NCBI GenBank assembly: GCA_036267155.1
Contig: DATAWP010000082.1
Span: 35,686-99,685 of the forward strand
Direction of reading: 5' to 3'
DNA: 64,000 bases
Source: Tepidisphaeraceae bacterium
Lineage (GTDB): Bacteria > Planctomycetota > Phycisphaerae > Tepidisphaerales > Tepidisphaeraceae
Shown here: in pieces, positions 20,802 to 36,813 of the stretch
How the letters are laid out: each line of letters begins with the position of its first letter
Numbering within the stretch: position 1 is the stretch's first letter
Program-made: the position numbers and the translations under genes
Notes under the pieces: generated by a model
What the model was told of the DNA's origin: nothing
Database searches by the model: none
The model's input: the letters and a program-made list of their open reading frames with translations, nothing else

Positions 20802-20832
20802 TTTTCTGGCGGATTTGTTGTTCGGGTGATTT

Positions 20833-22746: not shown

Positions 22747-22777
22747 AATATCGCGGACTCTCCAACGCGGCTGATTG

Positions 22778-23056
22778 TCAGAGTTCATCCAACTGTATCC
22801 CAATGCCGCCGCTTTCCCCCGCAAGCTGCGAGGCCGGATATGTCCGCAACCTTTGATTATTCTGCACGGGCCGTGCAATGTGCTCGGGCAATTCCACTCC
22901 CGCTTTCGTGGCACGACGCCGGGCGTTGCGCAGGCGTGACAGAACTGCTCGCCGACTGATGTGCAGCCAGGCGGCAATCTGATTGATGGATGCCTGACGC
23001 CCGTAACGAAGCCAAAGGGCCTCTTGTTGCTTTTCCGTCAGAGCCAGTGAATTCAC
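22778..23056 (-). CDS. small sigma-70 region-4-like HTH DNA-binding protein
   Basis: GTG start at 23056, preceded by AGGAGG (23068-23063) with 6-nt spacing. The GTG overlaps the upstream TGA (GTGA). The product is VNSLALTEKQQEALWLRYGRQASINQIAAWLHISRRAVLSRLRNARRRA..., an HTH of the sigma r4/LuxR type. The longer track ORF (to 23254) has an Arg/Pro-rich, non-protein-like N-terminus. Confidence 0.65.
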   Translation of the reverse strand: MNSLALTEKQQEALWLRYGRQASINQIAAWLHISRRAVLSRLRNARRRATKAGVELPEHIARPVQNNQRLRTYPASQLAGESGGIGIQLDEL

Positions 23057-23487
23057 GCATTTCCTCCTGCTCCTGCCCGGCCGATGAAAACGCTGCCGAA
23101 TCGGGGGCGATCGTTCCGCAGACGAGCCCGTTCTTCGGCGAATTCCGGATCCTCCTCCGCTTCGACCTGGCAATCGAGGGAATAATTCGATTCCCGGACC
23201 GGCCGGGGATGGCGGCGATTGGGGAACAGCGTTCGACACGCGGGGCACGCGCATTGAAAATCCGGAGCGTACGCGGCGCTGCGGTAGAGACAGTCCTCCG
23301 CCCAGGTGGAGGAACAGGCGGTTTCTTCGATTTGGCGGCGGATGTGACGAAGCTGGCGAAGGAGCGTCGTTTCGGGTTCTGATCGGGTCTGACGATTCTG
23401 ATGCCGCCGCCCCAACCTGCCTTCGGCCTCGCCTTCGCTATCCGCATCGACTACTATGTTTGGATTATTTACAACTATTTCCGCCAT
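23053..23487 (-). CDS. hypothetical Cys-rich protein
   Basis: From the ATG at 23487: MAEIVVNNPNIVVDADSEGE... It contains C-x7-C...C-x-C-x2-C (ACSSTWAEDCLY...FQCACPAC). It is translationally coupled to the downstream HTH gene. Confidence 0.55.
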   Translation of the reverse strand: MAEIVVNNPNIVVDADSEGEAEGRLGRRHQNRQTRSEPETTLLRQLRHIRRQIEETACSSTWAEDCLYRSAAYAPDFQCACPACRTLFPNRRHPRPVRESNYSLDCQVEAEEDPEFAEERARLRNDRPRFGSVFIGRAGAGGNA

Positions 23488-23515
23488 CGAAATATCCTCC
23501 ACTGGTGCATCGGAT

Positions 23516-23911
23516 TCAGATTGAGGGCGACGCCGCCCGTCGAGAGGTCAGTTCTCCCCTTCCAAACATTTCCCGCAGCGCCCGATCGCGGTAGCCGATC
23601 CACATCTTCCAAAGCAGCCGGCCAAGTAACTCGCTGGGCGGTGGATCCGCGGATGCCCTGGACAAACCGGCCGCATCCTGGACTTCCAGAAGGGCGTCGC
23701 GTAATCGATCCGCATGGAGATTGACAAAGCGAGCCGAGACGGACTCCTGCTGATTGGCATCGCAGGCGTTCCAGAGGCGGTTTCCGCTGGCGTCACCCAA
23801 CTCATCCGCCGGTCCGTCGCAATCGGCCTGGCGGGTTTCCGCCGGCAAGCCTGGTTGCCAGGCGACGCTCAACCGCGGGAAACGCGCATAGTCCATTTGG
23901 GTTTTGCCCAT
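23516..23911 (-). CDS. hypothetical protein, first gene of operon divergent from repressor
   Basis: The track ORF is 23516..23950. The ATG at 23950 abuts the operator-like palindrome with no room for an RBS, so ATG 23911 (MGKTQMDYARF...) is preferred. No family recognised. Confidence 0.5.
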   Translation of the reverse strand: MGKTQMDYARFPRLSVAWQPGLPAETRQADCDGPADELGDASGNRLWNACDANQQESVSARFVNLHADRLRDALLEVQDAAGLSRASADPPPSELLGRLLWKMWIGYRDRALREMFGRGELTSRRAASPSI

Positions 23912-23950
23912 CGATATTTCCCGAAAGAGACTTGACAATATTCCAATCAT

Positions 23951-23967
23951 ACTCCAAACTTTGGAGT
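23951..23967. promoter_or_regulatory. operator-like palindrome in divergent intergenic region
   Basis: ACTCCAAA-C-TTTGGAGT has perfect 8-bp arms. A further GTTTGGA half-site lies at about 23991-23997 and a TCCAAT at about 23943. The intergenic region 23951-24032 is AT-rich and contains TTGACA at 23932-23937. Confidence 0.5.
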
Positions 23968-24032
23968 AGTCAACGAAAAAGTTAGGTAAATGTTTGGATC
24001 ATCAGGTTTCTCGGATATAAAGAAAGTCGGCC

Positions 24033-24743
24033 ATGGCGCGTGTCACAAAAATCTTCGGCAAACAGCTGACGGAGGCCAGGGAGAAAAAGGCGATGACCCA
24101 AAGGGAACTTGGCGAGGCGATTGGCTGCTCCGATGAAACCATCAGCAGGGTCGAACGCCACGAGGTGGCGGGCATTTGGACCAAGCGTCTTCCGAAATTG
24201 GCGTCAGCGCTGGGTTTGAGCCTTGATGACTTCAAGGCGAGATTCTGCGCAGCGGAGAACTCGCCCGCGATCAATGAGGCGGGGCGGTTGGGAATGTCCG
24301 TTGGCTTGAATATGCGCCGAGCGCGCCCGGTGCGGGTGTTACCGGAGTTCCAGATCGGCATCGCCGCCAGCCGGCGCGTGGACAAATTCTCCGAGCATCC
24401 CGATGCGAACCGGCTGGTGGCTGCCGCCGACCGCCGCGCCTTCGCCGCGCCCGTGGATGGAGATTGCCAACACCCCAAGTGGAAACACGGCGAGATCGTT
24501 GTGTTCAGCTTTGATGCCGCCGAGCGAGAAGGAATCCTGCCGGGCAAATCGTACTACCTCGCTTTTACGGATGGTTCGACGACTTTTAAACGGGTTTTCA
24601 AGGATGAGAAGGATCCCGACGTTTTCGTTCTTCGTTGCTGGAACCGCCGAAAATATCCAGCCGACCAGAGAGTTCATCGCGACGAAGTCGTGCGGATCGC
24701 ACGGGCCGTTTCCAAGCAGGTCGTCGTGGACGAGGATGAATGA
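24033..24743 (+). CDS. CI/LexA-like repressor: XRE-family HTH plus S24 peptidase-like C-terminal domain
   Basis: 236 aa. The N-terminus is MTQRELGEAIGCSDETISRVERHE (XRE HTH). The C-terminus, APVDGDCQHPKWKHGEIVVF...STTFKRVF, aligns by eye with the LexA/CI motifs G-[DNM]-S-M and [TV]-[FV]-K-[RK]-L. Cys145 (TGC at 24465-24467) occupies the nucleophile Ser position. Confidence 0.75.
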   Translation: MARVTKIFGKQLTEAREKKAMTQRELGEAIGCSDETISRVERHEVAGIWTKRLPKLASALGLSLDDFKARFCAAENSPAINEAGRLGMSVGLNMRRARPVRVLPEFQIGIAASRRVDKFSEHPDANRLVAAADRRAFAAPVDGDCQHPKWKHGEIVVFSFDAAEREGILPGKSYYLAFTDGSTTFKRVFKDEKDPDVFVLRCWNRRKYPADQRVHRDEVVRIARAVSKQVVVDEDE

Positions 24744-24776
24744 ATGGTCCGGCGATAGGCGCCGATGCAAAGGAAA

Positions 24777-24882: not shown

Positions 24883-25614
24883 TTACGCGGGACGGCGCTG
24901 TTTAAGCTTCCGTCCCAATCCAATCAAGGCCAGGCCACCGAGGCCAGCCAGACTTTGCCACGCGGCTGCCGGCAGCGGAACGACGTTGCCTGGGCCACCG
25001 GGGCCGGACGAAGACAATTCCTTGAAGGAAAAATCAGATCCGGCCGGTGCGTCAATCAGGAGATTGTCGCCGCTGGCACTTGGATCGCCATTGCCCCAGA
25101 AGGACGTCACGCCGTTGCCTTGGGTTCCCGTATATGCCAGAACCGTATTCCCGGGATTGAGGGATACCGTGCTGTAGTCATACCCCGGTCCGGTCGGCGG
25201 GATGAACGTCCTGCCGACGCTGTCGAAGGTGGCCAGGGTGCTCGTTGTGTTCAACAGAACAAACGAGAACCCGTTGAACGAAGAGCCGGTATTGTTCACG
25301 ATCGTCTCATCCGGAATGACAAACTCCGTCGCAACCGTTCCGGTGTATCCGGCAATGGGCGCGAAGTTGATCTGATATCCCTGATTTGGCGCTGTGAACG
25401 TGGCTGTCTTTTCCAGATCGACCTGGTTGCCGTCCGCGGAATCCTGATTAATCGCCAGGCCGACGCCTGTGCTCCAGGATATATCCCAACCGTCGATTGC
25501 AACCGGGCTCGTATTCTGGATCTGGGCCGCCGGCGCTGACGTCGCACCGAGCATGCCCAATCCGGCGAGAACCGCACCCGCGGCTATCGCAACTTTTCTA
25601 TATCTGCTACTCAT
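24883..25614 (-). CDS. PEP-CTERM sorting-domain secreted protein
   Basis: From the internal ATG at 25614: MSSRYRKVAIAAGAVLAGLGMLGATSAPAA (signal peptide). The C-terminus VVPLPAAAWQSLAGLGGLALIGLGRKLKQRR is a PEP-CTERM-like motif followed by a TM helix and a basic tail. Confidence 0.75.
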   Translation of the reverse strand: MSSRYRKVAIAAGAVLAGLGMLGATSAPAAQIQNTSPVAIDGWDISWSTGVGLAINQDSADGNQVDLEKTATFTAPNQGYQINFAPIAGYTGTVATEFVIPDETIVNNTGSSFNGFSFVLLNTTSTLATFDSVGRTFIPPTGPGYDYSTVSLNPGNTVLAYTGTQGNGVTSFWGNGDPSASGDNLLIDAPAGSDFSFKELSSSGPGGPGNVVPLPAAAWQSLAGLGGLALIGLGRKLKQRRPA

Positions 25615-25721
25615 GTGTACCTCCTTAAAATTAAAAACTTCGGCCGCTATCCAAGTGGCCAACGATCTTCGATACCACATCGTCAGAAGCACGGTCAAGA
25701 CCGAAAAGCTTCTACAACAAC

Positions 25722-26744
25722 CTATAACGAATACCCTGCCGCTTTCAAATTCGCGTAAAGATTGCTCAGAGCCGCCTGAATGTTGGTTACATCCGTTTTA
25801 AGGTTGTTGAGCATGGTTTGCTCGTTGATCGCGTAGGTCGAATTGGCGGTCTGGCTTGTTGTCAGGTTTTGCACGGGATGGACCAAGGTGGCAGACTGGG
25901 GAGGAAACCACGTATACATCTGATACCATATATTGGTGGCACTGGTATTGCCGGAAGTTATGATCGAATATTGCGGAAAGCCGACCACGAATCCCCACAC
26001 ATATGTGCCTTCCGCCAGCGAATTTCGGCTTGCCGCTCCGTATGTTTGCTCCCACTGATTGGTGATCCAGCAATTGTCCACGGTGGGCAAGAACGCCGGA
26101 TTCAGGCTGCTGAGCGGAAATGCATACCCAAAATTGCTCCCGGTGGCGAATTGGCCCTCCACCGTTCGCCCGTAATACACGCCGCCATATGTGCTCTCAT
26201 AAGTGCCGGTAATTTTTGCGATGACGGGAAAAAGCGGCGTGTTGTCGACGTAGACGATGGTTCGTGGATTGGTTTCAGACGTGAAACCCATGACTCGCCC
26301 CACCGCGTACATCATGAACGCCGTGTTGCCCCACAGGAGATGGGTGCCGTTTACATACGGCTCCATCAGATTGATGACCAAGGCGTTATTAACCAAACTC
26401 CCATCGCTATTGGTTTGGGGAGCCGGGCCGTCCGTCGCCGACTGGTTCGTTTGAGCTTGCAACTGAAAATTATTCGATGTGTTGCCGGTGCTGTTGCCGT
26501 AAAGAATGGAACCTTGATACCGCCCGCCTCCGGTTTCCGTGCCGATAATGGCGACCAATGCCAACTCCGCTGGAGTTGATCGCAGACCGATGGTTGTGCC
26601 GCTGCCCCCACCGGTCATAAACAGCGGCGGCATCACCGCCAGCCGATCCAGGCGTTCGATATCCTCCACCATTCGGTTGTACAAATCGGCGGAGAGCGTC
26701 ACGCCGTCGCCTTCGCTGATGTTGGCGCGGGGATAGGGCTTCAA
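25722..26744 (-). CDS. phage tail-associated protein (hub/fibre-like position), hypothetical
   Basis: 340 aa, beta-rich and rich in Gly/Thr/Asn. The C-terminal ...TDVTNIQAALSNLYANLKAAGYSL resembles endings seen in phage fibre/host-specificity proteins. It starts 9 nt after the upstream gene. Confidence 0.45.
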   Translation of the reverse strand: MKPYPRANISEGDGVTLSADLYNRMVEDIERLDRLAVMPPLFMTGGGSGTTIGLRSTPAELALVAIIGTETGGGRYQGSILYGNSTGNTSNNFQLQAQTNQSATDGPAPQTNSDGSLVNNALVINLMEPYVNGTHLLWGNTAFMMYAVGRVMGFTSETNPRTIVYVDNTPLFPVIAKITGTYESTYGGVYYGRTVEGQFATGSNFGYAFPLSSLNPAFLPTVDNCWITNQWEQTYGAASRNSLAEGTYVWGFVVGFPQYSIITSGNTSATNIWYQMYTWFPPQSATLVHPVQNLTTSQTANSTYAINEQTMLNNLKTDVTNIQAALSNLYANLKAAGYSL

Positions 26745-26753
26745 GAGAACTCC

Positions 26754-27575
26754 TTACTGCAAAAGCGGGCTGAGGTCGGCGGTCGGATAAATGGTGCTGC
26801 CGTCGGAGATGCGCGTAACCTGCTGCCATGTCCCAGCCGTGCCGGAACTTTTCGCCGTTGGCTGCAAGAGATTGTTCCACCCGGTAGGAAGGTAGAGGAA
26901 TTTGTAGGTCATGTCCCAGTTCTCCGCCCCCAGCGTGGTCAATCGCCGGTCGGCGTGGGCGCCGTCAAAGAGCACCGTCCCCGCGGCTCCGCCCAGGAAC
27001 GTTGAGGAATTGACGCAACCGGCCAATCCCTGAACGTTTGCCGTGGGCAGCGATGCCAGATTCTTTCGCGTCTGCACGATCGTGACGATCCCCACCCGAA
27101 TCGGCGGGCTGTCCTGCGGCTGCAACGGAGTGCCGTCGGGAAACTGGTACGTCGGCGCGCTCTGCGGCAACGCAACAGTGTGCGTCGCATAGTCCAACGA
27201 CATCGTCCCCGTCGTCACACCCTCGAAATAATCCAGGCTCTTGTACGTGATGCGAAGACGAGCGTATTTGTAACCGACCAACCCATTGGGTCCGACGTTC
27301 AGCCCGTCTTCGCCGGGCAGCCCTTCGACGTGAATCGAATCGAACGGAAGAAACGGCGCATCGGGATAGACCTGCGACGGCGTGTAATAATAATACGCGC
27401 CGATCTCCACCCCGCCGCCGCGAATCTGCTCGATGATCGTGACCCGGTCTTCCCATGCGCACAGCATCGTGCGCACCGCCGTGCTGTTGCCGGTGCGGAC
27501 GAAATTCTCTTCGGTCCCCTCATCCCAGGCTTGCACGCCCAGAAAAGTGATCGCCGTGGTTGAATCGAGCGCCAT
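26754..27575 (-). CDS. phage tail-associated protein (distal-tail position), hypothetical
   Basis: 273 aa. It starts 3 nt after the stop of the upstream gene. It is beta-rich, and no family was recognised by eye. Confidence 0.45.
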   Translation of the reverse strand: MALDSTTAITFLGVQAWDEGTEENFVRTGNSTAVRTMLCAWEDRVTIIEQIRGGGVEIGAYYYYTPSQVYPDAPFLPFDSIHVEGLPGEDGLNVGPNGLVGYKYARLRITYKSLDYFEGVTTGTMSLDYATHTVALPQSAPTYQFPDGTPLQPQDSPPIRVGIVTIVQTRKNLASLPTANVQGLAGCVNSSTFLGGAAGTVLFDGAHADRRLTTLGAENWDMTYKFLYLPTGWNNLLQPTAKSSGTAGTWQQVTRISDGSTIYPTADLSPLLQ

Positions 27576-27578: not shown

Positions 27579-28271
27579 TTAATCCTTCAGGAGTACCAGG
27601 GTCTTGGCATTGGAAAAGACCTTGTCCAGTTTTGTGGCTGCATCACCGAGCTTTCGCAGCATGTCCGAAAGAATTGAAACATCGCCGCCACCCTGCGGAG
27701 CATTAAAATCGGAATTAGCCAATTGCGACGCGGCCGCCAGGCTCGGGGCTTGGGCATTCGTCAACGGCAACGTGTGCGGCATCTCCTGCGGCGCGGCATT
27801 GCGCTCGAATTTTCCCTCATCGGCCGCTGCATTCTGAAATTGGTCTTCCTTTTCCTGCACCGCCGGGATTCGGCCGTTCGATTCCCCTTCCCGGAACTTT
27901 GCCCGATGTGCCGCATCGGATTCGGAATTGGCCGGAACCTGGCTTTGAATCATCTTGAACCCCCGGACGCGCTCTTTATCAGGGAGGTCGATGGATTCTT
28001 CTTGGGAATGGGGCTTGTTTTCCAACTCCTGCCGCCGGGCGACTATGCCATGATTTAGGCCCTGAAGTTGAAGAGAATTGAGGTGGCTGCGATCGTCATC
28101 ATGCTGATTGAGTAACGTTGTGTTCAGTTCCTGGGGACGCGACGAGCGGATCGCGCCCACGTTATTCTTAAGCCTCTGCACGTCCGAATCCGTCGCGTTG
28201 CCCCAATCATCTGTGCGTTGGTTGTCTTGGCCTTGTTCATCCATGGAATTTGTTCCTTTGACGTTTTCCAA
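27579..28271 (-). CDS. hydrophilic Gln/Asp/Asn-rich protein in tape-measure position
   Basis: 230-aa ORF directly after the G/GT-like pair. It is highly polar and has no TM helix. The start may instead be the internal Met at 28244. Confidence 0.45.
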   Translation of the reverse strand: MENVKGTNSMDEQGQDNQRTDDWGNATDSDVQRLKNNVGAIRSSRPQELNTTLLNQHDDDRSHLNSLQLQGLNHGIVARRQELENKPHSQEESIDLPDKERVRGFKMIQSQVPANSESDAAHRAKFREGESNGRIPAVQEKEDQFQNAAADEGKFERNAAPQEMPHTLPLTNAQAPSLAAASQLANSDFNAPQGGGDVSILSDMLRKLGDAATKLDKVFSNAKTLVLLKD

Positions 28272-28318
28272 GTTCGGTTAAACCTAGTTTCGACGCATAC
28301 GCGGAAATGCGATGTACG

Positions 28319-29118
28319 CTATAAGGACCCGGCCGTATAACGTCGAAGGCCGCCTAATACCGATTCAACCGCCGGACTTCGCCCGTCCCCTTCCGCGCAG
28401 ACCTGTACAACCAAATCCCCCGCCGGCATTCGCAGCAAATCGATCGGAAGACATCGCCTGCGATCGACGATGCGATCGAATATCTCATTTTGCCGGATTT
28501 TGATTTCTTCCGCACCGTCTGAATCGGCGACGACATTTAAATCAAACCCCATTGCATGCATGAGCTGCGGCCAAGTCAGCTCCGTCGCCTGGGCGTATGT
28601 CAATCCGAGCCCCTGCGGTCCGGGGCTGGTGAGGTGCGCGAAGATGCCCCGCCAGTCGATGGGGCGTTCGTCCCCGGCGCTATGGGGCCGCTCGCCGCCG
28701 GGGCTGCGGCTTTTTTTGCGGGCTTGTACCCCCACATCGACCATACCGTTCCCACTTTGGCCGCATATTCGCCATCGCACAAAAGCTGTGACGCCTCGGG
28801 CAACGTCAGCTTCGGATGCTTGATCCGCAGCAGAAGCCAGGTCAGAAACGGCGCCGCTGACATCGACAGCGCCCACTGGTCAAACGCGTGTGATCCGTAA
28901 CTGAACGGATGGACGCGCAGATTATCCACGGCCCGCTGATGAATCGCATCGCGAACCGCCGCCGGCAACCCCGCCGCCGATTTCGCGATCCCGCGCAGAT
29001 ATTGGGCGGCGGCTTCCTCTTCCGCTTCGGCGAATTCGATCAGCCGCGGCGGTGACAGCGTATGTCCAGGAAATGCCGACGAATCGCCCAGGCCCACCAA
29101 CTCCTTTAGTTCACTCAT
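28319..29118 (-). CDS. tail assembly chaperone GT-like fusion via programmed -1 frameshift (about 266 aa)
   Basis: ORF 28319..28876 is in the -1 frame relative to 28600..29118 (29118-28876=242, which is 2 mod 3). After a slip at A AAA AAA the reading continues KKSRSPGGERPHSAGDERPIDWRGIFAHLTSPGPQGLGLTYAQATELTWPQLMHAMG... The DW...LGL...LTW.QL pattern resembles the T-domain of HK97/GTA-type tail chaperones. Confidence 0.6.
28600..29118 (-). CDS. tail assembly chaperone, G-like (zero-frame product)
   Basis: 172 aa starting MSELKELVGLGD... It carries the slippery run at codons 134-136 (GCA AAA AAA). It lies directly downstream of the tube-like gene. Confidence 0.6.
   Translation of the reverse strand: MSELKELVGLGDSSAFPGHTLSPPRLIEFAEAEEEAAAQYLRGIAKSAAGLPAAVRDAIHQRAVDNLRVHPFSYGSHAFDQWALSMSAAPFLTWLLLRIKHPKLTLPEASQLLCDGEYAAKVGTVWSMWGYKPAKKAAAPAASGPIAPGTNAPSTGGASSRTSPAPDRRGSD
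28711..28717 (-). promoter_or_regulatory. -1 ribosomal frameshift slippery heptamer A AAA AAA
   Basis: The plus strand reads TTTTTTT at 28711-28717. In the zero frame the codons are GC[A AAA AAA] GCC, which fits X XXY YYZ. Confidence 0.6.
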
Positions 29119-29126
29119 CGGTCACC

Positions 29127-29543
29127 TCAAGATACCGGGGTGTAGCTGCCATTTCCCTTGGCGGTGAAACGCGTGGTGATCTTGCCGTCCACCTTCAGGC
29201 TTTGCGGTGTCGAGTCAACCACGAGCGACGAAAACGTCCAGGCCAACCCATCAAGTTGACCTGCCGCACTTTGATTCAAACACAGCTTCACGTTGGTCAG
29301 GATCGTGCCCGGCTGGATGGAATAGGGCGTTTGGAACGGATTATTCCCAAAATCAAAGTCCACGTCGATGCTTACGCTGCAATCCTTGAACGTGGCTTCG
29401 CGCAGGACATATCCCCCGCTCCTGCTGTTTTTGAATTCGGTCAATTGAGCCGTCGGCTGCACGCTCCAACTAGTGACGGAAAGCTCGTTCGTGCCGAGCG
29501 CGGCGGTGCCGAACGATCCGGAATGAAAAACTGAGGCGGCCAT
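29127..29543 (-). CDS. phage major tail tube-like protein
   Basis: 138 aa and beta-rich (MAASVFHSGSFGTAALGTNELSVTSWSVQPTAQLTEF...VDGKITTRFTAKGNG). Its size and its position immediately upstream of the frameshifted chaperone pair match siphovirus/GTA tube genes. Confidence 0.5.
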   Translation of the reverse strand: MAASVFHSGSFGTAALGTNELSVTSWSVQPTAQLTEFKNSRSGGYVLREATFKDCSVSIDVDFDFGNNPFQTPYSIQPGTILTNVKLCLNQSAAGQLDGLAWTFSSLVVDSTPQSLKVDGKITTRFTAKGNGSYTPVS

Positions 29544-29588: not shown

Positions 29589-30083
29589 TTACGCCGATCG
29601 GCCGAGAATGGTGACCTTGCCCGGCACGTTCACGCCGGAGGCGGCGGAAATCTGCAGCGTGTCGCTGGTTCCAGCCACGACGGAATAGCCGGGATTGGGA
29701 TTGATGACGAAGAACGTCCCGCCATTGGCCTGGGCCGTGCCCTGATCGGTTCCCAGCACCGGATGCGTTCCGCCGCCAACGGTAAAATCCTGTCCTGACG
29801 TCGTGCTGTCATTTTCGACCAATACGGATGTCACATGCACCATTGCCAGGACATTGCCCAGGGGATCGGTCGCCGATGGAAGCGTGATGGTCAGCGGCGT
29901 ACCCGCGCTGACCGTAAACGGTTCGGAAAAACAGCCGTCCACATTCCCGGCGGAATTACCGGCGCCAAGCGTGACGACCGGCTGATGGTTCACCTGTGAG
30001 GAAACCACCGCCGGCGCCGCGCCGGCCGTGAGCTGGCATTTCAATTGGACGCTGGGCTGAGGATTGGAAAGAGTTGTGGCCAT
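29589..30083 (-). CDS. hypothetical beta-sandwich-like protein
   Basis: From the internal ATG at 30083: MATTLSNPQPSVQLKCQLTAGAAP... 164 aa, Thr/Gly/Val-rich, with no signal peptide. Confidence 0.45.
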   Translation of the reverse strand: MATTLSNPQPSVQLKCQLTAGAAPAVVSSQVNHQPVVTLGAGNSAGNVDGCFSEPFTVSAGTPLTITLPSATDPLGNVLAMVHVTSVLVENDSTTSGQDFTVGGGTHPVLGTDQGTAQANGGTFFVINPNPGYSVVAGTSDTLQISAASGVNVPGKVTILGRSA

Positions 30084-30114
30084 TGAGCGGTCTCCAAAGA
30101 ATTCACGGGACGAT

Positions 30115-31203
30115 TCAGCAAAGCGAAGCCAGCCGATCGCGCGCAATGTACATATTGACGCGAATCATCAGCACGCTGACCCATCGCTGTGTCCAGGCTA
30201 CCGTCGCGAACAAATCTGACGGCGGCGCATCGGTGAGTGAAAATGCCGTGCGCGAGGCATGTGCCGAGAAGTTTTGAAAATAGACATCGGCGGCGGGAAT
30301 CGTGTCGTCGGTCGAAGCAGTTGCACCGATCGCATTACACGCCGACGCAGAGCTAAGAGTGCCAGCCATGGCAAAAATGCAAAGGTCGGAAATCAGGTTC
30401 GCGCCCCCAAACGTCATCACCGCCCCGCTGCTGCTCGCGCCGGCGCCGCTGCTGGGGCGAGTGCTGCAAATGATCGTGCCGCCGGTCAATTCGATTTGGG
30501 CCGTGCCGGTCGCCGCGTCTCCGGCGACGAGGTTTAGCGCGTACGTTCCATTAATATCCGCGCCGCTGCTTTTCCAATAACTCGATGCGGTGAGCGATCC
30601 GAGGGTCTGGCTGAGAATCCAGTTGCCGCCGCCGTTGTTCCAGATATACCAATTTTGCTGAACGCCGAAAAGGTACGGGAACCCATTGTAGGTTGCGAAC
30701 CCGCCGGCGGCTTGTGGCGTCATCGAAAATGCGTCTGGAACCGGCCCGGTGAAATTCCCGTCTGCGGCGGTGCCCGATCCAACGAGCGAGATATTGCCGT
30801 GGCAGTTGCCAGAGCCCTTGACGTTCACGCCGGAGGGGACGAAGAGATTTCCAGCGCCGAGATCGAAGCATCCAGCCGAGACCGATACGAGATCGCCGGG
30901 TTGAGCCACGGCCAGCGCCGCGCCGATCGTGGCGAAGGGATACATTCGCGAATAGGCTTTGGCCGTCGAATCATTTCCGCCGGTACAGACAAAAATCGTG
31001 TTGAATTCCGAAACGTCCGGCGGAATCACCGCTTGGGGGAAAACGCCGCCGCTTTGCAGGGCCGGCAGATCGCCGGCGGAATTTCCGACCGTCGCCGCCG
31101 CGGCCGAGCCCAGCCCCAAATTGGTCCGCGCCGTCGCGGCGTTGGCCAGGTCGGAGAGATTGTTGGTCTTCTGAAGGCCCTCCGCCGTGTATGATCCAAG
31201 CAT
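30115..31203 (-). CDS. phage tail fibre-like protein
   Basis: From the internal ATG at 31203: MLGSYTAEGLQKTNNLSDLANAATARTNLGLGSAAA. The NLSDL-x-N-x3-AR-x-NLGLG motif is common at the N-termini of phage tail fibre proteins. The remainder is Gly/Ala/Ser-rich. Confidence 0.55.
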   Translation of the reverse strand: MLGSYTAEGLQKTNNLSDLANAATARTNLGLGSAAAATVGNSAGDLPALQSGGVFPQAVIPPDVSEFNTIFVCTGGNDSTAKAYSRMYPFATIGAALAVAQPGDLVSVSAGCFDLGAGNLFVPSGVNVKGSGNCHGNISLVGSGTAADGNFTGPVPDAFSMTPQAAGGFATYNGFPYLFGVQQNWYIWNNGGGNWILSQTLGSLTASSYWKSSGADINGTYALNLVAGDAATGTAQIELTGGTIICSTRPSSGAGASSSGAVMTFGGANLISDLCIFAMAGTLSSASACNAIGATASTDDTIPAADVYFQNFSAHASRTAFSLTDAPPSDLFATVAWTQRWVSVLMIRVNMYIARDRLASLC

Positions 31204-31284
31204 AGGCGCGCAGCTTCCTTTCCGAACATGAGGGCAATTAAACGGTGCAAGGCGCGAGCAGTCTCTTCCCGGCTTCACCGCTTG

Positions 31285-32730
31285 TTATCTAGGAATTCCT
31301 TCGAGTCCCGTGTTCCACCCATCCGGCATGCCCACGATGCTAAAGTTTTTTGTAAATCTGTTTCCCGCAGCGCCGCGCACCACGGCTTGCGCCGGTGTAA
31401 ACGTGGTCGCCCGCCAATCCCATTCGTTGCAGTGTGACGGCCGAGGATTCACGATGGCGAAATCATTGAACGTGTTGCCTGTAGCCTGATCGAGCCAGAT
31501 TCCACAGACGTTGCGCATTTCCCATGATTCAAAGACGTTCCCACTTTGCTGGACGCCGGCTGATTCCAGCCAGATTCCCTCGCCGCCGTCCACATCGAAG
31601 CAGCGAAAGACGTTGTTGCCGCCCGGCGTGTACCAGAGTTCCAGGGCCGCCCCGCGTCCCCCGTGAATCTGGACATAAGTGAACAGGCAGTTTTGAACAC
31701 CGATGCCTTTGGAGTCCTCGGCACTGATGACTTCGTTGGCATTGGTTCCCTGTATGACCCGATCGAAATCGAGCGAGTTGAAATAACTGTTGGTTGGACC
31801 TTGACGCATGACAATCCCGCGGCACGTCAGGTCCCAATTGCAGTTAATGACAGCGTTCTGATCTCCGCCGAGGATCAACTCGTTCATCGACCTCGCGGGT
31901 ACGCCGTGCCACGACATGCCATGGAGCATGGTGTGGCCCGCTGCTAGTCGGCCGCCGCAGTGGATCGTTTCGGTATCCTCAAAAAGGGCGCCGATCGAAT
32001 TGAGGCGCGCAATCTCCACGCTGATGAGCTTCAGCCGCAGAAAATTCGGATTCGTTTCCAGCGATTTATCGAGATAAAAAATGGCGCCCGGGCACGTCGT
32101 GCAATCCACCGTCAAATCGCTGATCGTCCCACCATATCCGCCTCGACCGACAAACAGAATTATGTCCGCGCCATCTTTGGCGTTACGGGTTCTTGTCAGC
32201 ACCACGAGATTCCGGTTCACACCGCGTAAACTGGCCCCCGGCGGTCGGAAAACGCTGTGCCCGATCGTATAGCAGCCCGGCGAAAGAACGACATCCGATC
32301 CCGAATTCCACGCCGCCTGAATCTGCCCGCTGTCATCGCTGCCGCTCGGCGAAAGCACCGTCGTGCGGCGAGGCACCGGCGGAAGACGGACGCTCACGCG
32401 AGTCGCCGTCTTCTGATTACCGATGACCAACCAATAGTTCCCCGCGGGGATTGTCGTCGGCAGCGTCAAGCTGGCGCCATCGCGACTGTCCTCGACAATG
32501 CCCCAGTTGGATGCGTTCAGCGTCACCGAATTACCGGCGGAATCGACCAGCGCATAGCCTTTGGCCGGCAGATTCTCCCTGACACTCCAAATGTAATCCT
32601 CCCCTCCCGGCTCGACCCACTGCCTCCACATGCCGGGATAAACGGCCGCCGGCGGGACCTGGCCATCCGCACCACACGCGACAATTGAATTGACGGCGCA
32701 CACTAAAAAAACCAAAAGCAGCCGCTTCAT
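31285..32730 (-). CDS. secreted right-handed beta-helix (pectate-lyase-fold-like) protein
   Basis: 481 aa. The signal peptide is MKRLLLVFLVCAVNSIVACGADG. Repeated short beta-rung segments carry Asn/Gly/Cys ladders (NCNWDLTCRGIVM, NCLFTYVQIHGG, NVFRCFDVDGGEGIWL). The start ATG overlaps the upstream TAA (TAATG). Confidence 0.6.
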   Translation of the reverse strand: MKRLLLVFLVCAVNSIVACGADGQVPPAAVYPGMWRQWVEPGGEDYIWSVRENLPAKGYALVDSAGNSVTLNASNWGIVEDSRDGASLTLPTTIPAGNYWLVIGNQKTATRVSVRLPPVPRRTTVLSPSGSDDSGQIQAAWNSGSDVVLSPGCYTIGHSVFRPPGASLRGVNRNLVVLTRTRNAKDGADIILFVGRGGYGGTISDLTVDCTTCPGAIFYLDKSLETNPNFLRLKLISVEIARLNSIGALFEDTETIHCGGRLAAGHTMLHGMSWHGVPARSMNELILGGDQNAVINCNWDLTCRGIVMRQGPTNSYFNSLDFDRVIQGTNANEVISAEDSKGIGVQNCLFTYVQIHGGRGAALELWYTPGGNNVFRCFDVDGGEGIWLESAGVQQSGNVFESWEMRNVCGIWLDQATGNTFNDFAIVNPRPSHCNEWDWRATTFTPAQAVVRGAAGNRFTKNFSIVGMPDGWNTGLEGIPR

Positions 32731-34631
32731 TATTTCACCTGAAATCCCGCTTGAATCCAGTTCACCACACCGGCCGCCGTGAGGCGGTCATCCCAGTTGC
32801 CAGGCCAATTGTTCTCCATTGCCGTCATTAGGCTCGGACCGTCGCTCACGCCGATGATCCCCAGTGTCTTGGCGTAGCTGCTGCAAGTGCGCGTATCGTC
32901 AACATACGCCGGCTCCGTCCCCGTCACGCCAGCGACGCCATTTACACCCGGCAACACGACCAGACCACTATAGGCAATCGCCGGCAGCGGCGGCGTGCTC
33001 TGAGAAAGGTTCACCGCATTCGACCCGCTGGCATCAAACCAATTGTGAACGATGACGTTCGGGCCGACAGTGGCGACCGTTGCCTCGGTGGGCATCCCCT
33101 CGGGATTCTTGCCCGAATCGGTGCAGTGAACGCCCACGGCGAATCCGCCGTTGTACTGAACGTCTCCGGCGTCGCTCTTGTTGATGACATACAGATTACT
33201 GATGGAGCCAGTTGTCGCACAGTCCAGATAAGCGCCCCAGCCACGGCCCGTGCCAGCGCCCGCGAGACTCAGCGCCGATCCCACCTGCCCTGAGCCTGTC
33301 GAAGGGTCGAATTCGCCGCCGCCGCCATCCACGACGCAGTTTTGGATCGTCGCCGGAAATCCACCGCCGCCGTAGAACGCGATCGGGTTCGCCAAGGACA
33401 CACAATGGTCAAAGAATCCGCCATAGTTGCTCTCGCAGCCGTCCGCCGCGGCTTCGGCGAACAGGTCGTTGATAAACCGAACCTGGGCATCCGCAGGGTC
33501 GCCGGGGTTGGGATGGTTTGGATTGATATAAACGTCGTGGGCGGTTCCATTGTTGTTTTTCGCGCCGCAGTTGGCGAAGACGCTGCGCGTCACCAAAAAG
33601 TCCCGGATGCTCACGGCGAACAAACCCGCTTGCGTCGCTCCACCGTGGCAGTCGTGGATTGAGCAACCTTCAATGACAAATGCCGTACAGTCGTCGTTGG
33701 CGTCTGTCTCATCATCCTCAAGATCGAAGCCACCCTGGAACCCGCTGGCGGCACAATCGAATATGCCAACGTGATCACTGGACTCTCCGGCAGTCTGATC
33801 CACAAATCGAATAAACCATGATGTTGCCCCCGATCCGGCGGCACCATTCAGGCCATCAATGATGAGATAGTGCATCGGACCGCCCCAGGCATGAGTGCTA
33901 GTGGGCGACCCGGCGATTCCAAATCCACTCTGCAAGATCGGGCGCGGCTGGGAATGATCGAGAAAACCGTTAACACCGATGCGGCCGACGATGAAGGGAT
34001 GCCCCGCCGTTCCCGTGGCTCCCTGAATGTTCTGGTTGACGGCGCTGGCGGGATAAACCCCGCCATCGCGGAACAGGACGCAAAGCGATCCGTTGTTGAT
34101 CGCGGCATTCTGCGCCGAATTGAAATCGGCATAATCGCTCGCCTGGTGTCCCGGTGTCGTCGCCGTGCTGATGATGCAGGCGTTTGCGGGGATCAGCGGC
34201 GTCAAATCGAGATTGCCGTTGGCGTCATATTTGAACGAATCCAGCCACTGGGTTGTGCCGTAAGTTTCGCCGGCAACGCCGGGGAGGCTCGCTAGCCACA
34301 CGGGAAGTCCGCTGGTCTGCCCTGAGCCTGTCGAAGGGGCCTGTCCTGAGCCAGCCGAGGGAGCCTGCCCTGAGCCCGTCGAACCCGATGACGCGGTTGG
34401 CTGTGTCGCCGGAGGCGTCGAGGAACCTGAGTTCCCCCCGCCGTTGGGATTGCCGCCGGTTTGGGTTGCTGTCACCGAAATCGAAAACTGCGTCGTGGCA
34501 GTTGCCACGATGTTTCCGCTGCCGTCGGTGACGCTGCTTCGAATGATATACGTTTGTGCCAATGCACGGGAAACGAAGCAAATCACAAGAATCGCCAGCA
34601 GATGCTTCGGTATTGAAACAGCGACTTTCAT
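32730..34631 (-). CDS. secreted beta-helix-like protein with Ig-like N-domain and Gly/Ser/Gln linker repeats
   Basis: From the internal ATG at 34631: MKVAVSIPKHLLAILVICFVSRALAQ (signal peptide). The STGSGQAP/SAGSGQAP/STGSGQTS linker follows. The later part has beta-helix-like rungs (IEGCSIHDCHGG, NCVVDGGGGEF). Confidence 0.6.
   Translation of the reverse strand: MKVAVSIPKHLLAILVICFVSRALAQTYIIRSSVTDGSGNIVATATTQFSISVTATQTGGNPNGGGNSGSSTPPATQPTASSGSTGSGQAPSAGSGQAPSTGSGQTSGLPVWLASLPGVAGETYGTTQWLDSFKYDANGNLDLTPLIPANACIISTATTPGHQASDYADFNSAQNAAINNGSLCVLFRDGGVYPASAVNQNIQGATGTAGHPFIVGRIGVNGFLDHSQPRPILQSGFGIAGSPTSTHAWGGPMHYLIIDGLNGAAGSGATSWFIRFVDQTAGESSDHVGIFDCAASGFQGGFDLEDDETDANDDCTAFVIEGCSIHDCHGGATQAGLFAVSIRDFLVTRSVFANCGAKNNNGTAHDVYINPNHPNPGDPADAQVRFINDLFAEAAADGCESNYGGFFDHCVSLANPIAFYGGGGFPATIQNCVVDGGGGEFDPSTGSGQVGSALSLAGAGTGRGWGAYLDCATTGSISNLYVINKSDAGDVQYNGGFAVGVHCTDSGKNPEGMPTEATVATVGPNVIVHNWFDASGSNAVNLSQSTPPLPAIAYSGLVVLPGVNGVAGVTGTEPAYVDDTRTCSSYAKTLGIIGVSDGPSLMTAMENNWPGNWDDRLTAAGVVNWIQAGFQVK
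34315..34386. repeat. three tandem ~24-nt units inside CDS (8-aa S-[TA]-GSGQ-x-x repeats)
   Basis: The units are CTGCCCTGAGCCTGTCGAAGGGG, CCTGTCCTGAGCCAGCCGAGGGA and GCCTGCCCTGAGCCCGTCGAACC. The 22-mer at 34317-34338 recurs identically at 33285-33306 in the same gene. Confidence 0.8.
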
Positions 34632-34740
34632 GCGGTCATCCCGTTCTAGCTTTTTTCTTCGCCCCGGCGAGCGTGCCAAATACGGCGGCGCGTGTCAATC
34701 TACGCTGAATTCGAACTTGGCCACTGTCACAATGTTGGTG

Positions 34741-35028
34741 TCAGCGTGTAAAGAACTGATAGGCGCAACCCCCGGCGACGGCGACAAAGATCGTGCGCCA
34801 GAGCCACCGCCAGGCCGTGGACGCCTCGACGAGTTTGCTGACTTGCCAGAGCATTCCACTCTGAGGACCCTTGTCGCCTCCGAAGACCTGGCGGTCGAGC
34901 TTTTCAACGGTCGTCGCCACACGTGCGACCTGGCTGGAAAGCTTTATCAACTCGCCCCTCAAGTCATCCAGCGCGATGCGAAGTTCATGGTTTTCCTCTG
35001 AGGTCATTTCATCCTCACGCTTGATCAT
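34741..35028 (-). CDS. small coiled-coil protein with C-terminal TM helix
   Basis: 95 aa: EENHELRIALDDLRGELIKLSSQVARVATTVEKLDRQVFG, then WRWLWRTIFVAVAGGCAYQFF. Confidence 0.5.
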   Translation of the reverse strand: MIKREDEMTSEENHELRIALDDLRGELIKLSSQVARVATTVEKLDRQVFGGDKGPQSGMLWQVSKLVEASTAWRWLWRTIFVAVAGGCAYQFFTR

Positions 35029-35120
35029 TCAACCAGCGCGGTCCCGGCGCATCAGGGCCGCTTTTGGTGATCAAAATCGGGCCCGATTACCATCGCGATG
35101 AAGTCGAATGGTCCCGTCGC

Positions 35121-35330
35121 CTATGATGGCGCTTGCGGCGTTGCAGTCGCGGCGGAAGCGGCCTGGTGAATCTGGGTAGTTGGGATTGGCTGCTGACCTA
35201 CCAGCGGCGCCAATGTGTTGAGCTGCGTCACGTCGTCGCTGTCAATGACGGCGCTTCCAACGGGAATCTGTGCCGGCTCGGCTTGGATGGCCGCGACAGC
35301 CGCTTGCGCGATAATGCCTACCTGTGTCAT
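35121..35330 (-). CDS. small Ala/Gln-rich hypothetical protein
   Basis: From the internal ATG at 35330: MTQVGIIAQAAVAAIQAEPAQIPVG... 69 aa. Coding status is uncertain. Confidence 0.35.
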   Translation of the reverse strand: MTQVGIIAQAAVAAIQAEPAQIPVGSAVIDSDDVTQLNTLAPLVGQQPIPTTQIHQAASAATATPQAPS

Positions 35331-35512
35331 GTTAAATGCTCCTGTCAATCGAAATTCCAGAACAAGAACGGGAAAACCGCTGCTGCTCCTGCGAATGCCG
35401 TGTTTGTGAAGTTCACCGAGCCGCATCATCGGATAGCCCCGGCGCTAAGGGTTCAACTTGGTCCTCTGTCAAACATTTACCGCACGGAGCGTAGCCGGCA
35501 ATCATCAACGAA

Positions 35513-35899: not shown

Positions 35900-36015
35900 A
35901 GCAAGGCGATCGACTCAAACAGCGGCAGGGCGGACGCGGTAAGGAGGTGGACCGCGACAACCGCCCCGCCGCCAAGCGGTGCGCTCAAATCTGCCGTTTT
36001 AGTGCGGTCCCTCTA

Positions 36016-36228: not shown

Positions 36229-36267
36229 CGTCCTCGCCCCGAAACAAAATGCCAGGAACTTCACAGG

Positions 36268-36295
36268 TTGACACCGGCTCAGGACCGATCATAAT
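36268..36295 (+). promoter_or_regulatory. sigma-70-like promoter candidate for the DUF2203 gene
   Basis: TTGACA (36268-36273), 16 nt, then CATAAT (36290-36295), about 85 nt upstream of ATG 36381. Confidence 0.4.
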
Positions 36296-36809: not shown

Positions 36810-36813
36810 TCCC

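What the first reader, a model, noticed from the sequence alone, without database searches (positions are those of the whole stretch)
28319..29118. Programmed -1 frameshift signature (A AAA AAA) linking two overlapping ORFs
ORF 28600..29118 reads ...WGYKP-A-K-K-AAAP with codons GCA AAA AAA. This gives a perfect X XXY YYZ heptamer at 28711-28717. ORF 28319..28876 is exactly in the -1 frame, and from the slip point it encodes a non-random 130-aa extension (…IDWRGIFAHLTSPGPQGLGLTYAQATELTWPQLMHAMGFDL…). The pair lies between a tube-like gene and the tape-measure slot. That is the conserved position of the G/GT tail-assembly-chaperone recoding event in long-tailed phages. This is the strongest single piece of evidence that the locus is tail-derived and still under selection.
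Basis: partly seen in the sequence, partly recalled or inferred. Interest (0 to 1): 0.65.

Follow-up and report, generated by a model that had tools for sequence, protein, structure and literature searches.

The report
Conserved tail-chaperone frameshift in planctomycete prophage
The two overlapping genes are a real, conserved example of the well-known phage trick in which a ribosome slips back one base on A AAA AAA to make a short and a long tail-assembly protein, here in a previously unannotated protein family of peat-soil Planctomycetota, so the mechanism is ordinary but the family and its genomic setting are new.

Summary
On the minus strand, ORF 29118..28600 (172 aa) reads GCA AAA AAA at 28719..28711. 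The -1 frame then stays open for 130 codons to 28319, which predicts a 266-aa fusion.

One sequence alone proves little: A7 runs occur at chance frequency in the window. Comparison settles it:
- Every one of more than 40 homologous loci (Tepidisphaeraceae MAGs) keeps the in-phase heptamer. The preceding codon changes amino acid but always ends in A.
- The -1 extension is conserved (dN/dS about 0.28).
- In 14 of 27 loci it has no possible start of its own.
- 13 distant relatives encode G+T as one in-frame protein that aligns end to end with the predicted fusion.
- Other relatives use C CCA AAC or G GGA AAT at the same spot. This favours ribosomal over transcriptional slippage.

The upstream gene has a tail-tube fold, and the downstream slot is a tape-measure gene in relatives. 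This is a G/GT-type tail assembly chaperone of a new, unannotated sequence family.

No stimulatory RNA structure is supported in the window.

Side finding: relatives carry a complete head-tail cluster at the same chromosomal site, which looks GTA-like. The window's copy has lost its head genes, yet its tail genes show no relaxed selection.

The parts
28600..29118 (-). G ORF (zero frame), 172 aa. It has a helical domain (about residues 15-130) and then a low-complexity tail after Lys135-Lys136.
   Evidence: The AlphaFold model has pLDDT above 90 for residues 20-130 and is disordered from residue 135, which is exactly the slip site. The tail after KK is variable in relatives.
28711..28717 (-). 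Slippery heptamer A AAA AAA, in X XXY YYZ phase (zero-frame codons GCA AAA AAA at 28719..28711).
   Evidence: It is invariant and in phase in all homologous loci. Nucleotide-level selection is shown.
28319..28711 (-). T extension in the -1 frame: 130 codons (SRSPGG...IDWRGIF...GLTYAQATELTWPQLMHAMG...RRYTAGSL) plus the TAG stop at 28321..28319.
   Evidence: Conserved at 126-136 aa in relatives. dN/dS is 0.28, and 0.21 in the overlap with the G tail. It has no own start in 14 of 27 loci.
28319..29118 (-). Predicted GT fusion product, 266 aa (G residues 1-136 plus 130 residues from the -1 frame).
   Evidence: It aligns end to end with 13 single-ORF homologues of 252-279 aa (alignment A4).
28647..28703 (-). 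Candidate downstream stem. The 5' arm CCCCGGCGG lies at 28703..28695, 7 nt after the heptamer. The 3' arm CUGGCGGGG lies at 28655..28647, in the D-W-R-G codons of T. An alternative local hairpin pairs 28703..28696 with 28679..28672. Neither is supported as a functional element.
   Evidence: The arms can pair in about 85% of cells across relatives, but with no covariation, and shuffles do equally well. The window fold has z = +0.2. Eight of 16 relatives have z at or below -1.6.
29127..29543 (-). Tail tube (major tail) protein, 138 aa, directly upstream of G. An SD-like GAGGTG at 29128..29123 serves G.
   Evidence: The AlphaFold model is an all-beta fold. The Foldseek PDB hits shown (top 50) are nearly all tail-tube, Hcp or tailocin-tube chains. 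The best is 8gtb_A, the tube of siphophage R4C (probability 1.00, E 1.4e-3).
27579..28271 (-). Tape-measure-slot protein (221-230 aa, depending on the start chosen).
   Evidence: Its C-terminus (...KLDKVFSNAKTLVLLKD) is shared with the 203-440 aa proteins in the same slot in relatives. In distant member L053 the slot holds a 650-aa protein that matches tape-measure PHROGs (E 1.6e-5) and TIGR01760 (E 2.8e-5, below its cut-off). The window's own protein has no family hit.
29589..30083 (-). 164-aa conserved tail or neck gene upstream of the tube gene.
   Evidence: 77-89% identical in the close relatives (73% in the distant L046) and syntenic. It matches phrog_22694, of unknown function (E 2.5e-10).
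25722..27575 (-). Two distal tail genes, 273 aa (27575..26754) and 340 aa (26744..25722).
   Evidence: Syntenic in all long loci, at 83-97% and 72-85% identity in the close relatives (45% and 42% in the distant L046). The C-terminus of the 340-aa protein has a weak fibre-like match.
30118..30192 (-). Deletion junction. The last 25 codons of the 362-aa ORF (31203..30118) are the remnant of the 163-aa gene that follows the capsid gene in every relative.
   Evidence: tblastn gives 64-88% identity over residues 338-362 only. No terminase, portal or capsid homologue occurs anywhere in the 64-kb window.

Best explanation
The locus encodes a tail assembly chaperone pair of the lambda G/GT type.

Proposed mechanism (inferred):
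- Most ribosomes translate ORF G in frame. They make a 172-aa protein with a folded helical domain and a disordered tail.
- A minority slip back one base while decoding A AAA AAA (28717..28711), with both tRNA-Lys re-pairing.
- These ribosomes continue in the -1 frame for 130 codons and make a 266-aa GT protein. GT has the same helical domain joined to a conserved T domain.
- By analogy with lambda, both products act transiently to assemble tube subunits around the tape-measure protein.

Shown here: the geometry; conservation of the heptamer, its phase and both reading frames; the lack of an independent start for T; the existence of the same two-domain protein as a single ORF in distant relatives; and the tube-upstream, tape-measure-downstream position.

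Inferred, not shown: that slippage is ribosomal, its efficiency, and the chaperone function itself.
For: - Geometry is confirmed.
- The heptamer is invariant and in phase in 43 loci and in 5 more distant members. The preceding codon takes 7 forms encoding 7 amino acids, all ending in A, against a background of 11.7% third-position A. Both Lys codons are always AAA against 33% elsewhere.
- The T frame is conserved at 126-136 aa with dN/dS 0.28. In the overlap, the -1 frame is the selected one (dN/dS 0.21, with its third position the most variable), while the zero-frame tail is low-complexity and variable.
- In 14 of 27 loci a -1-frame TAA lies 4 codons before the slip point, and there is no ATG, GTG or TTG before the conserved DWRG motif. 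T can only be made as a fusion, and the shift window is pinned to the A run.
- A profile search finds 173 family clusters. Thirteen are single ORFs of 252-279 aa that align with the predicted fusion over its full length, including the PIDW, LTxPQ and IFD motifs.
- Distant short members carry C CCA AAC (L058), G GGA AAT (L059) or A AAA AAA AAG (L052, L060) at the same position. Each is followed by a conserved -1 T domain whose stop abuts the next gene.
- The G model is confident up to residue 130 and disordered from 135, which is the slip site.
- The upstream gene has a tail-tube fold. In relatives the downstream slot is a tape measure, and capsid and portal genes lie upstream.
Against: - No match to any annotated tail-assembly-chaperone family in Pfam, PHROGs or NCBIfam, for the window protein or for 149 family representatives.
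- No significant match to solved structures.
- No supported stimulatory RNA structure in the window and no Rfam frameshift element.
- A AAA AAA is reported to be much less shift-prone than A AAA AAG in E. coli (Atkins et al. 2016, PMC5009743).
- No RNA or protein data could be found for this locus.
- The window's cluster has lost its head genes, so the product may have no role in this genome.
Confidence: 0.8

Rival explanations
1. The frame change is made by RNA polymerase, not the ribosome. Transcriptional slippage on the A7 template run adds one A to a fraction of mRNAs, and normal translation of these gives the identical GT protein.
For: The site is a homopolymer. Some relatives extend it to A8 (L016, L017, L029, L031, L037) or A9 (L052, L060), and those lengths favour polymerase slippage. 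The protein product would be indistinguishable. No stimulatory RNA structure is supported.
Against: A7 is short for efficient bacterial transcriptional slippage (general knowledge; the review covers longer runs). The run always contains the in-phase X XXY YYZ heptamer, which polymerase slippage would not require. Distant family members use non-homopolymeric heptamers (C CCA AAC, G GGA AAT) at the same place, and only ribosomal slippage explains those.
Confidence: 0.12
2. The recoding signal is a real inherited feature but is a relic in this genome. The cluster lost its head module, so G and GT are no longer used and simply have not yet decayed.
For: Terminase, portal, capsid and most of the 163-aa gene are absent from the whole window but present in every relative. 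Two assemblies agree on this arrangement.
Against: All seven remaining tail reading frames (164, tube, G, T, tape-measure slot, 273, 340) are intact. Changes specific to the window's branch are 20 nonsynonymous to 100 synonymous. That ratio is no higher than in head-bearing relatives (25:68 and 23:126). This is compatible with continued selection, or with a recent deletion.
Confidence: 0.35
3. T is an independent gene translated from its own start, and the overlap with G is incidental.
For: In the window the -1 frame is open for 56 codons upstream of the slip and contains GTG and ATG codons. Gene callers sometimes called it as a separate protein (P0062, P0064, P0065).
Against: In 14 of 27 loci a stop lies 4 codons upstream and there is no start codon before the conserved DWRG motif. 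The upstream part of such calls is just the out-of-frame reading of G. Single-ORF G+T proteins exist in distant relatives.
Confidence: 0.02
4. The frame break is a sequencing or assembly error at a homopolymer, or a recent inactivating mutation, and the true gene is a single ORF.
For: Homopolymer indels do occur. Three relatives show frame merges (protein P0044 and the nanopore-derived loci L009 and L011).
Against: The same frame arrangement is found in more than 40 independent assemblies from several projects, including relatives at only 45-61% identity. The A8 variants keep the two-frame layout.
Confidence: 0.02

Closest known systems
Bacteriophage lambda gpG/gpGT tail assembly chaperones and the conserved G/GT frameshift of long-tailed phages (Levin 1993; Xu, Hendrix & Duda 2004, 2013, 2014, as summarised in Atkins et al. 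2016, PMC5009743)
   Same: - Two overlapping ORFs lie between the major tail (tube) gene and the tape-measure gene.
- A canonical X XXY YYZ heptamer directs a -1 shift.
- The long product shares its N-terminus with the short one.
- The slippery sequence varies among relatives (A AAA AAA, A AAA AAG, C CCA AAC, G GGA AAT) while the position is conserved.
- There is little or no sequence similarity between families.
   Different: - No detectable sequence or fold similarity to annotated chaperone families.
- The slip lies 37 codons before the G stop, so G carries a long disordered tail that overlaps T.
- About 13 of 173 family clusters fuse G and T in frame.
- T diverges much faster than G and in step with the tape-measure gene. 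In lambda, by contrast, G binds the tape measure and T binds the tube protein. The correlation here may simply reflect linkage.
E. coli dnaX programmed -1 frameshift (A AAA AAG with an upstream Shine-Dalgarno-like element and a downstream hairpin)
   Same: It is a lysine-run heptamer decoded by tRNA-Lys. A G-rich stretch (UGGGGG) lies 11 nt upstream of the heptamer, and a GC-rich pairing can start 7 nt downstream.
   Different: The last base is A, not G. The upstream G run is the W-G codons and was not tested as a stimulator. The downstream structure is not supported in the window. The product is an extension, not a truncation.
RcGTA-type gene transfer agents (head-tail clusters domesticated by the host)
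   Same: - Relatives hold a head-tail cluster (about 21 kb in the L005/L056 genome) at one chromosomal site across diverged genomes.
- No integrase, replication or lysis genes are recognised.
- The tape-measure-slot proteins are short.
- The tube protein's best structural match is the tube of siphophage R4C.
   Different: No sequence homology to RcGTA genes was found. Packaging of host DNA is untested. The cluster carries a CI-like repressor and a ParB-like gene, and four copies are listed as viral contigs. The window's copy lacks the head genes altogether.

Membership tests
G/GT-type tail assembly chaperone with programmed -1 frameshift | Two overlapping ORFs located between the major tail (tube) gene and the tape-measure gene | tested here: met
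   The tube-fold protein lies directly upstream. The downstream slot protein shares its C-terminus with the slot proteins of relatives. In L053 that slot holds a protein matching tape-measure PHROGs and TIGR01760. The order capsid ... tube - G - T - long protein is seen in L046, L048, L052 and L054.
G/GT-type tail assembly chaperone with programmed -1 frameshift | A canonical X XXY YYZ slippery heptamer in the zero frame within the overlap, conserved among relatives | tested here: met
   A AAA AAA is in phase in all 43 close loci and in L046, L048 and L054. A AAA AAA AAG is found in L052 and L060, C CCA AAC in L058 and G GGA AAT in L059. Nucleotide-level selection is shown.
G/GT-type tail assembly chaperone with programmed -1 frameshift | The downstream ORF is in the -1 frame, is protein-coding under selection, and lacks its own translation start | tested here: met
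   dN/dS is 0.28 (T only) and 0.21 (overlap). In 14 of 27 loci there is no start codon between a -1-frame stop and the conserved motif.
G/GT-type tail assembly chaperone with programmed -1 frameshift | Both the short and the frameshifted long product are made, in a fixed ratio | not testable with these tools
   No RNA or protein data are available for this locus.
G/GT-type tail assembly chaperone with programmed -1 frameshift | The products bind the tape-measure and tube proteins and are absent from mature particles | not testable with these tools
   The only indirect evidence is that T divergence correlates with tape-measure divergence after controlling for G (partial r 0.59, permutation p about 0.001, n = 10). 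This could be due to linkage.
Annotated tail-assembly-chaperone sequence families (Pfam Phage_TAC families, PHROG and NCBIfam chaperone models) | A significant profile match | tested here: not met
   G and T have no hits in Pfam, PHROGs or NCBIfam. Of 149 family representatives, none hits a chaperone family. Two hit phrog_2115 'tail protein' weakly.
Solved tail-assembly-chaperone folds | Structural similarity of the G domain to a solved chaperone | tested here: not met
   Foldseek against the PDB finds nothing better than E = 1. A profile search against PDB sequences finds nothing. The BFVD library gives only uncharacterised Caudovirales proteins of similar size (probability 1.0, TM 0.45-0.58).
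dnaX-like stimulated -1 frameshift site | A stimulatory downstream stem-loop 5-9 nt after the heptamer | tested here: inconclusive
   The window has z = +0.2. The candidate 9-bp stem can pair in 85% of cells, but shuffles do as well and there are no compensatory changes. Eight of 16 relatives fold with z at or below -1.6.
Transcriptional slippage site | A homopolymer run long enough for slippage (usually 9 or more), with no dependence on codon phase | tested here: not met
   The window has A7. The phase is always that of X XXY YYZ. Some relatives use non-homopolymeric heptamers. There is no RNA data for a direct test.
Gene transfer agent (domesticated head-tail cluster) | Vertical inheritance at a fixed chromosomal site, without replication or integration genes | tested here: inconclusive
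   The same upstream flank (MoaE, EndoIII, QueE, DUF2203) is seen in three genomes, and the same downstream flank in 12 or more loci. No integrase or replication hits appear in the Pfam or PHROG annotations seen. Repeated integration at one attachment site is not excluded.
Gene transfer agent (domesticated head-tail cluster) | Particles package random host DNA and cannot transfer their own cluster | not testable with these tools
   This needs particles from a cultured or enriched host.

The most novel reading that the evidence does not exclude
The frameshifting chaperone may belong to a head-tail cluster that has been inherited vertically at one chromosomal site throughout Tepidisphaeraceae. 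That would make it a gene-transfer-agent-like or otherwise domesticated phage element in Planctomycetota, a phylum in which my literature search found none reported. The window would then show a derivative that has lost its head genes but keeps a selected, recoding-competent tail module next to a variable cassette of beta-helix proteins. In other words, it could be a step towards a non-contractile tailocin.
Probability: 0.25. Interest if true: 0.75.

Novelty: new member of a known kind. Interest (0 to 1): 0.35.

Why it matters
The G/GT frameshift is textbook, so the mechanism itself is not news. The result does four useful things.

1. It defines a large phage protein family with no annotation: 173 clusters at 50% identity, with no Pfam, PHROG or NCBIfam chaperone match. 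Gene callers systematically miss the long product. Recognising the family would correct the annotation of many soil and peat phage and prophage contigs.

2. The family offers a natural series for studying why the short-to-long ratio matters. It includes frameshifted forms with four different heptamers and in-frame fused forms.

3. It gives a firm functional anchor (tube, chaperone, tape measure) for a head-tail cluster that otherwise has almost no recognisable tail genes.

4. That cluster sits at one conserved chromosomal site in a family of Planctomycetota. This makes a GTA-like domestication hypothesis directly testable.

Tried and rejected
- Pfam, PHROGs and NCBIfam scans of G, T and the neighbouring tail proteins found no chaperone, tube or tape-measure hit for the window's own proteins.
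- Foldseek of the G model against the PDB found nothing. A profile of G against PDB sequences also found nothing.
- tblastn of the fusion against 50,697 phage records gave one hit at E = 9, under a 'pre-tape measure chaperone' gene of Pseudanabaena phage Pan1. The hit is on the opposite strand to that gene, so I rejected it as spurious.
- An Rfam scan of 28200..29300 gave only sub-threshold chance hits.
- The downstream structure was tested in several ways. The single-sequence fold is no better than shuffles. RNAalifold gave -0.67 kcal/mol. The named 9-bp stem shows no covariation. I therefore do not claim a stimulator.
- A search for RNA sequencing runs, to test transcriptional slippage, listed none. 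Only DNA metagenome contigs hold the locus.
- I first thought the window's 221-230 aa tape-measure-slot protein was truncated. I rejected this because relatives range from 203 to 616 aa.
- I first read the T/tape-measure co-divergence as evidence that T binds the tape measure. I downgraded this after checking that in lambda T binds the tube protein. Linkage is an equally good explanation.
- An early version of the correlation analysis used the wrong frame for G. It was corrected.
Full report
**1. The observation**

The genes lie on the minus strand. ORF 29118..28600 (ATG start, 172 aa) ends its conserved part with ...WSMWGYKPAKK. Its codons there are GCA AAA AAA at 28719..28711, so the seven A's at 28717..28711 form an in-phase X XXY YYZ heptamer. 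After a -1 slip the next codon is AGC, starting at 28711. That frame stays open for 130 codons (SRSPGGERPHSAGDERPIDWRGIF...RRYTAGSL) to TAG at 28321..28319. The predicted fusion is 266 aa with the junction ...KPAKKSRSPGG.

A single sequence proves little here. AAAAAAA occurs 9 times in the window against 8.95 expected, and long alternative-frame ORFs are abundant in this GC-rich DNA.

**2. Comparative test of the heptamer**

A protein search with the predicted fusion found 65 relatives, all from Tepidisphaeraceae or Phycisphaerales metagenome bins and all unannotated. I fetched 43 homologous loci from genome, metagenome and viral contig collections.

- All 42 of the fetched loci that reach the site (one contig ends before it), and the window itself, have at least seven A's that include the in-phase heptamer.
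- Among 27 distinct loci, the codon before the two lysines is GCA, ACA, GGA, CCA, TCA or CAA, and it is CGA in the distant L054. These are seven codons for seven amino acids, all ending in A, although only 11.7% of codons in these genes end in A.
- Both lysine codons are always AAA, although AAA is 33% of Lys codons elsewhere in these genes.

This shows selection on the nucleotide string, not on the peptide.

**3. Comparative test of the -1 frame**

The extension is 126-136 aa in relatives, with strongly conserved motifs (IDWRGIF, GLTYAQAAELTWPQLMHAMG, IFDRI, RRCLP..LLR.P, LRRY).

- Pairwise dN/dS is 0.28 in the T-only part.
- It is 0.21 in the part that overlaps the end of G. There the third position of the -1 frame is the most variable, so the -1 frame is the one under selection.
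- The zero-frame tail of G after KK is low-complexity and variable. Its only recurring motif (PSTGG.SS) is the out-of-frame shadow of PIDWRGIF.
- In 14 of 27 loci a TAA in the -1 frame lies four codons before the slip point. It is created when the Tyr codon is TAT, as in TAT AAG. No ATG, GTG or TTG follows before the conserved DWRG motif.

In those loci T cannot be translated on its own. The frame change must occur from the A run onward, and the A run is the only conserved slippery site there.

**4. Independent confirmation from distant relatives**

A profile search of 1.84 billion representative proteins found 173 family clusters.

- Thirteen are single ORFs of 252-279 aa. They align with the window's predicted fusion from end to end at 23-32% identity, including the T motifs, and they have no lysine run at the joint. 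The two-domain polypeptide therefore exists as such in nature.
- Most short members have KK or KKK just after the G domain, then a tail with STG or PTG, which is the shadow of xDW.
- DNA from five distant members shows the following heptamers, each followed by a conserved -1 T domain:
  - A AAA AAA in L054;
  - A AAA AAA AAG in L052 and L060;
  - C CCA AAC in L058;
  - G GGA AAT in L059.
- In L052 and L054 the T stop abuts the next gene.

Different canonical heptamers at one conserved position is the pattern described for G/GT genes. The non-homopolymeric heptamers argue that the family uses ribosomal rather than transcriptional slippage.

**5. What the proteins are**

- *G.* The AlphaFold model is a confident helical domain (pLDDT above 90 for residues 20-130) that becomes disordered at residue 135, exactly at the slip site. 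It has no significant match in the PDB. In the viral library it matches only uncharacterised Caudovirales proteins of similar size. No Pfam, PHROG or NCBIfam chaperone family matches G, T or any of 149 family representatives.
- *Upstream gene.* The 138-aa protein is modelled as an all-beta fold (mean pLDDT 71). Its listed PDB neighbours are nearly all tail-tube, Hcp or tailocin-tube chains, led by the tube of siphophage R4C (8gtb_A, probability 1.00).
- *Downstream slot.* The protein is 203-616 aa in relatives and shares a conserved C-terminus. In L053 it is a 650-aa protein that matches tape-measure PHROGs (E 1.6e-5) and TIGR01760 (E 2.8e-5, below its cut-off).
- *Further upstream.* Capsid, portal and terminase genes precede the tail genes in relatives.

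The pair therefore sits in the G/GT position. I file it as working like lambda G/GT, and as a member of the kind by position and recoding. It is not a member of any known chaperone sequence or fold family.

**6. Mechanism and stimulators**

- The 80 nt after the heptamer fold no better than shuffles (z = +0.2).
- A recurrent candidate stem has CCCCGCCGG starting 7 nt after the heptamer, pairing with CUGGCGGGG in the D-W-R-G codons. It can pair in 85% of cells across 25 relatives. Shuffled controls do as well, and there are no compensatory changes.
- Eight of 16 relatives do fold with z at or below -1.6. A family-level tendency to form structure is possible but unproven.
- Rfam has nothing here.
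- A UGGGGG stretch 11 nt upstream resembles the dnaX upstream stimulator, but it is the W-G codons and I did not test it.
- Transcriptional slippage on A7 cannot be excluded for this locus, because no RNA runs were listed. I give it about 0.12.

**7. Context and the 'still under selection' claim**

All relatives carry a complete cluster. The gene order is:
- beta-helix proteins (a variable cassette);
- small genes;
- a ParB-like gene;
- a terminase-like gene;
- a Mu-type portal;
- a capsid gene;
- 163-aa and 164-aa genes;
- the tube gene;
- G/GT;
- none to two reverse-strand genes;
- the tape-measure-slot gene;
- 273-aa and 340-aa genes;
- a PEP-CTERM-like protein;
- a CI-like repressor.

The window has no head gene anywhere in its 64 kb. 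The last 25 codons of its 362-aa ORF (30192..30118) are the remnant of the 163-aa gene. So the window holds a head-deleted derivative, and two assemblies agree on this.

Even so, all remaining tail frames are intact. Changes specific to the window's branch are 20 nonsynonymous to 100 synonymous, no worse than in head-bearing relatives (25:68 and 23:126). Against its closest relative, dN/dS is 0.09 for the G domain, 0.28 for T and 0.06 for the tube gene. Selection has dominated this lineage's history. Whether it continued after the deletion cannot be told.

**8. Side observation: a fixed chromosomal site**

The cluster lies at the same chromosomal site in diverged genomes.

- The upstream flank (Trp genes, AP endonuclease, ThiS, MoaE, EndoIII, QueE, DUF2203) is shared by the window and by the genomes of L005 and L046.
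- The downstream flank (HTH_3, 131 aa, a sigma-like gene, 637 aa, 462 aa) is shared by 12 or more loci.
- Identity of the host gene DUF2203 (91% and 71%) runs in parallel with identity of G (77% and 61%).
- No integrase, replication or lysis genes were recognised.

This looks like vertical inheritance of a domesticated, GTA-like element. Repeated integration of related phages at one attachment site is not excluded. My searches of the paper library found no report of such an element in this group.

**9. A caution on domain roles**

T (mean 60% identity) diverges much faster than the G domain (89%). Its divergence correlates with that of the tape-measure-slot protein after controlling for G (partial r 0.59, permutation p about 0.001, n = 10). 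In lambda, the G part binds the tape measure and T binds the tube protein (Atkins et al. 2016). The correlation may therefore reflect recombination linkage of adjacent genes rather than contact.

**10. Verdict**

It is a new, unannotated member of a well-known kind of recoding. Its interest is modest in itself. The family-wide picture and the conserved chromosomal setting raise it somewhat.

Noticed in passing
window 29589..36400, compared with L005/L056, L046/L057 and L048: The window's cluster is a head-deleted derivative. Relatives have ParB-like, terminase-like, Mu-type portal, capsid and 163-aa genes between the beta-helix proteins and the 164-aa gene. The window has none of these anywhere in its 64 kb. 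Only the last 25 codons of the 163-aa gene survive, as the end of the 362-aa ORF (30118..30192).
   Followed up: yes
window 19400..24750 and 36380..41000; loci L001-L021, L048, L056, L057: The whole head-tail cluster sits at one chromosomal site in diverged Tepidisphaeraceae genomes. The upstream flank is MoaE/EndoIII/QueE/DUF2203. The downstream flank is HTH_3/131 aa/sigma70_r4-like/637 aa/462 aa. No integrase or replication genes were recognised. The pattern is GTA-like or that of a domesticated prophage.
   Followed up: partly
window 30115..34679 (ORFs of 633-649, 481 and 362-387 aa): Three large secreted or beta-helix-like proteins lie upstream of the tail genes. The 362-387 aa ORF has a tail-fibre N-terminal motif and DUF1565. 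Only the 633-aa protein has homologues at this position in relatives (54% in L056, 31% in L057). The next genes differ between genomes, so this is a variable cassette that may be receptor-binding or depolymerase-like.
   Followed up: partly
proteins P0110, P0124, P0131, P0151, P0156, P0162, P0170, P0185, P0195, P0203, P0226, P0227, P0243: Distant family members encode the G and T domains as one in-frame ORF of 252-279 aa, with no slippery site at the joint. This raises the question of whether they make a short form at all.
   Followed up: partly
loci L001, L003, L005-L008, L010, L039, L046, L048, between GT and the tape-measure-slot gene: Most relatives carry one or two reverse-strand genes (about 145-257 aa, some membrane-like) inserted between T and the tape-measure-slot gene. 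The window and L013 have none.
   Followed up: no
window 27579..28271 and the same slot in relatives: The tape-measure-slot protein varies from 203 to 616 aa between otherwise very similar clusters, while keeping a conserved C-terminus (...KLDK..SNAKTLVLLKD). This implies large differences in tail length, or that part of the protein is dispensable.
   Followed up: partly
window 24883..25698 (minus strand): A protein with a PEP-CTERM-like C-terminus (VPLPAAAW...GLALIGLGRKLKQRR) follows the last tail gene. Its slot is syntenic in relatives at 38-86% identity, so it seems to travel with the cluster.
   Followed up: no
loci L009 and L011; protein P0044: These relatives (loci L009 and L011 from nanopore-based bins, plus protein P0044) show frame merges or breaks just after the A run or inside T. 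They look like homopolymer or indel assembly errors, not biological variants.
   Followed up: partly
window 24033..24743 (+) and 22778..23056 (-): A CI-like repressor (phrog_4, E 5e-14) and a small sigma-factor-like protein (phrog_3512) flank the distal end of the tail genes in the window and in relatives. They are candidate regulators of the cluster.
   Followed up: partly
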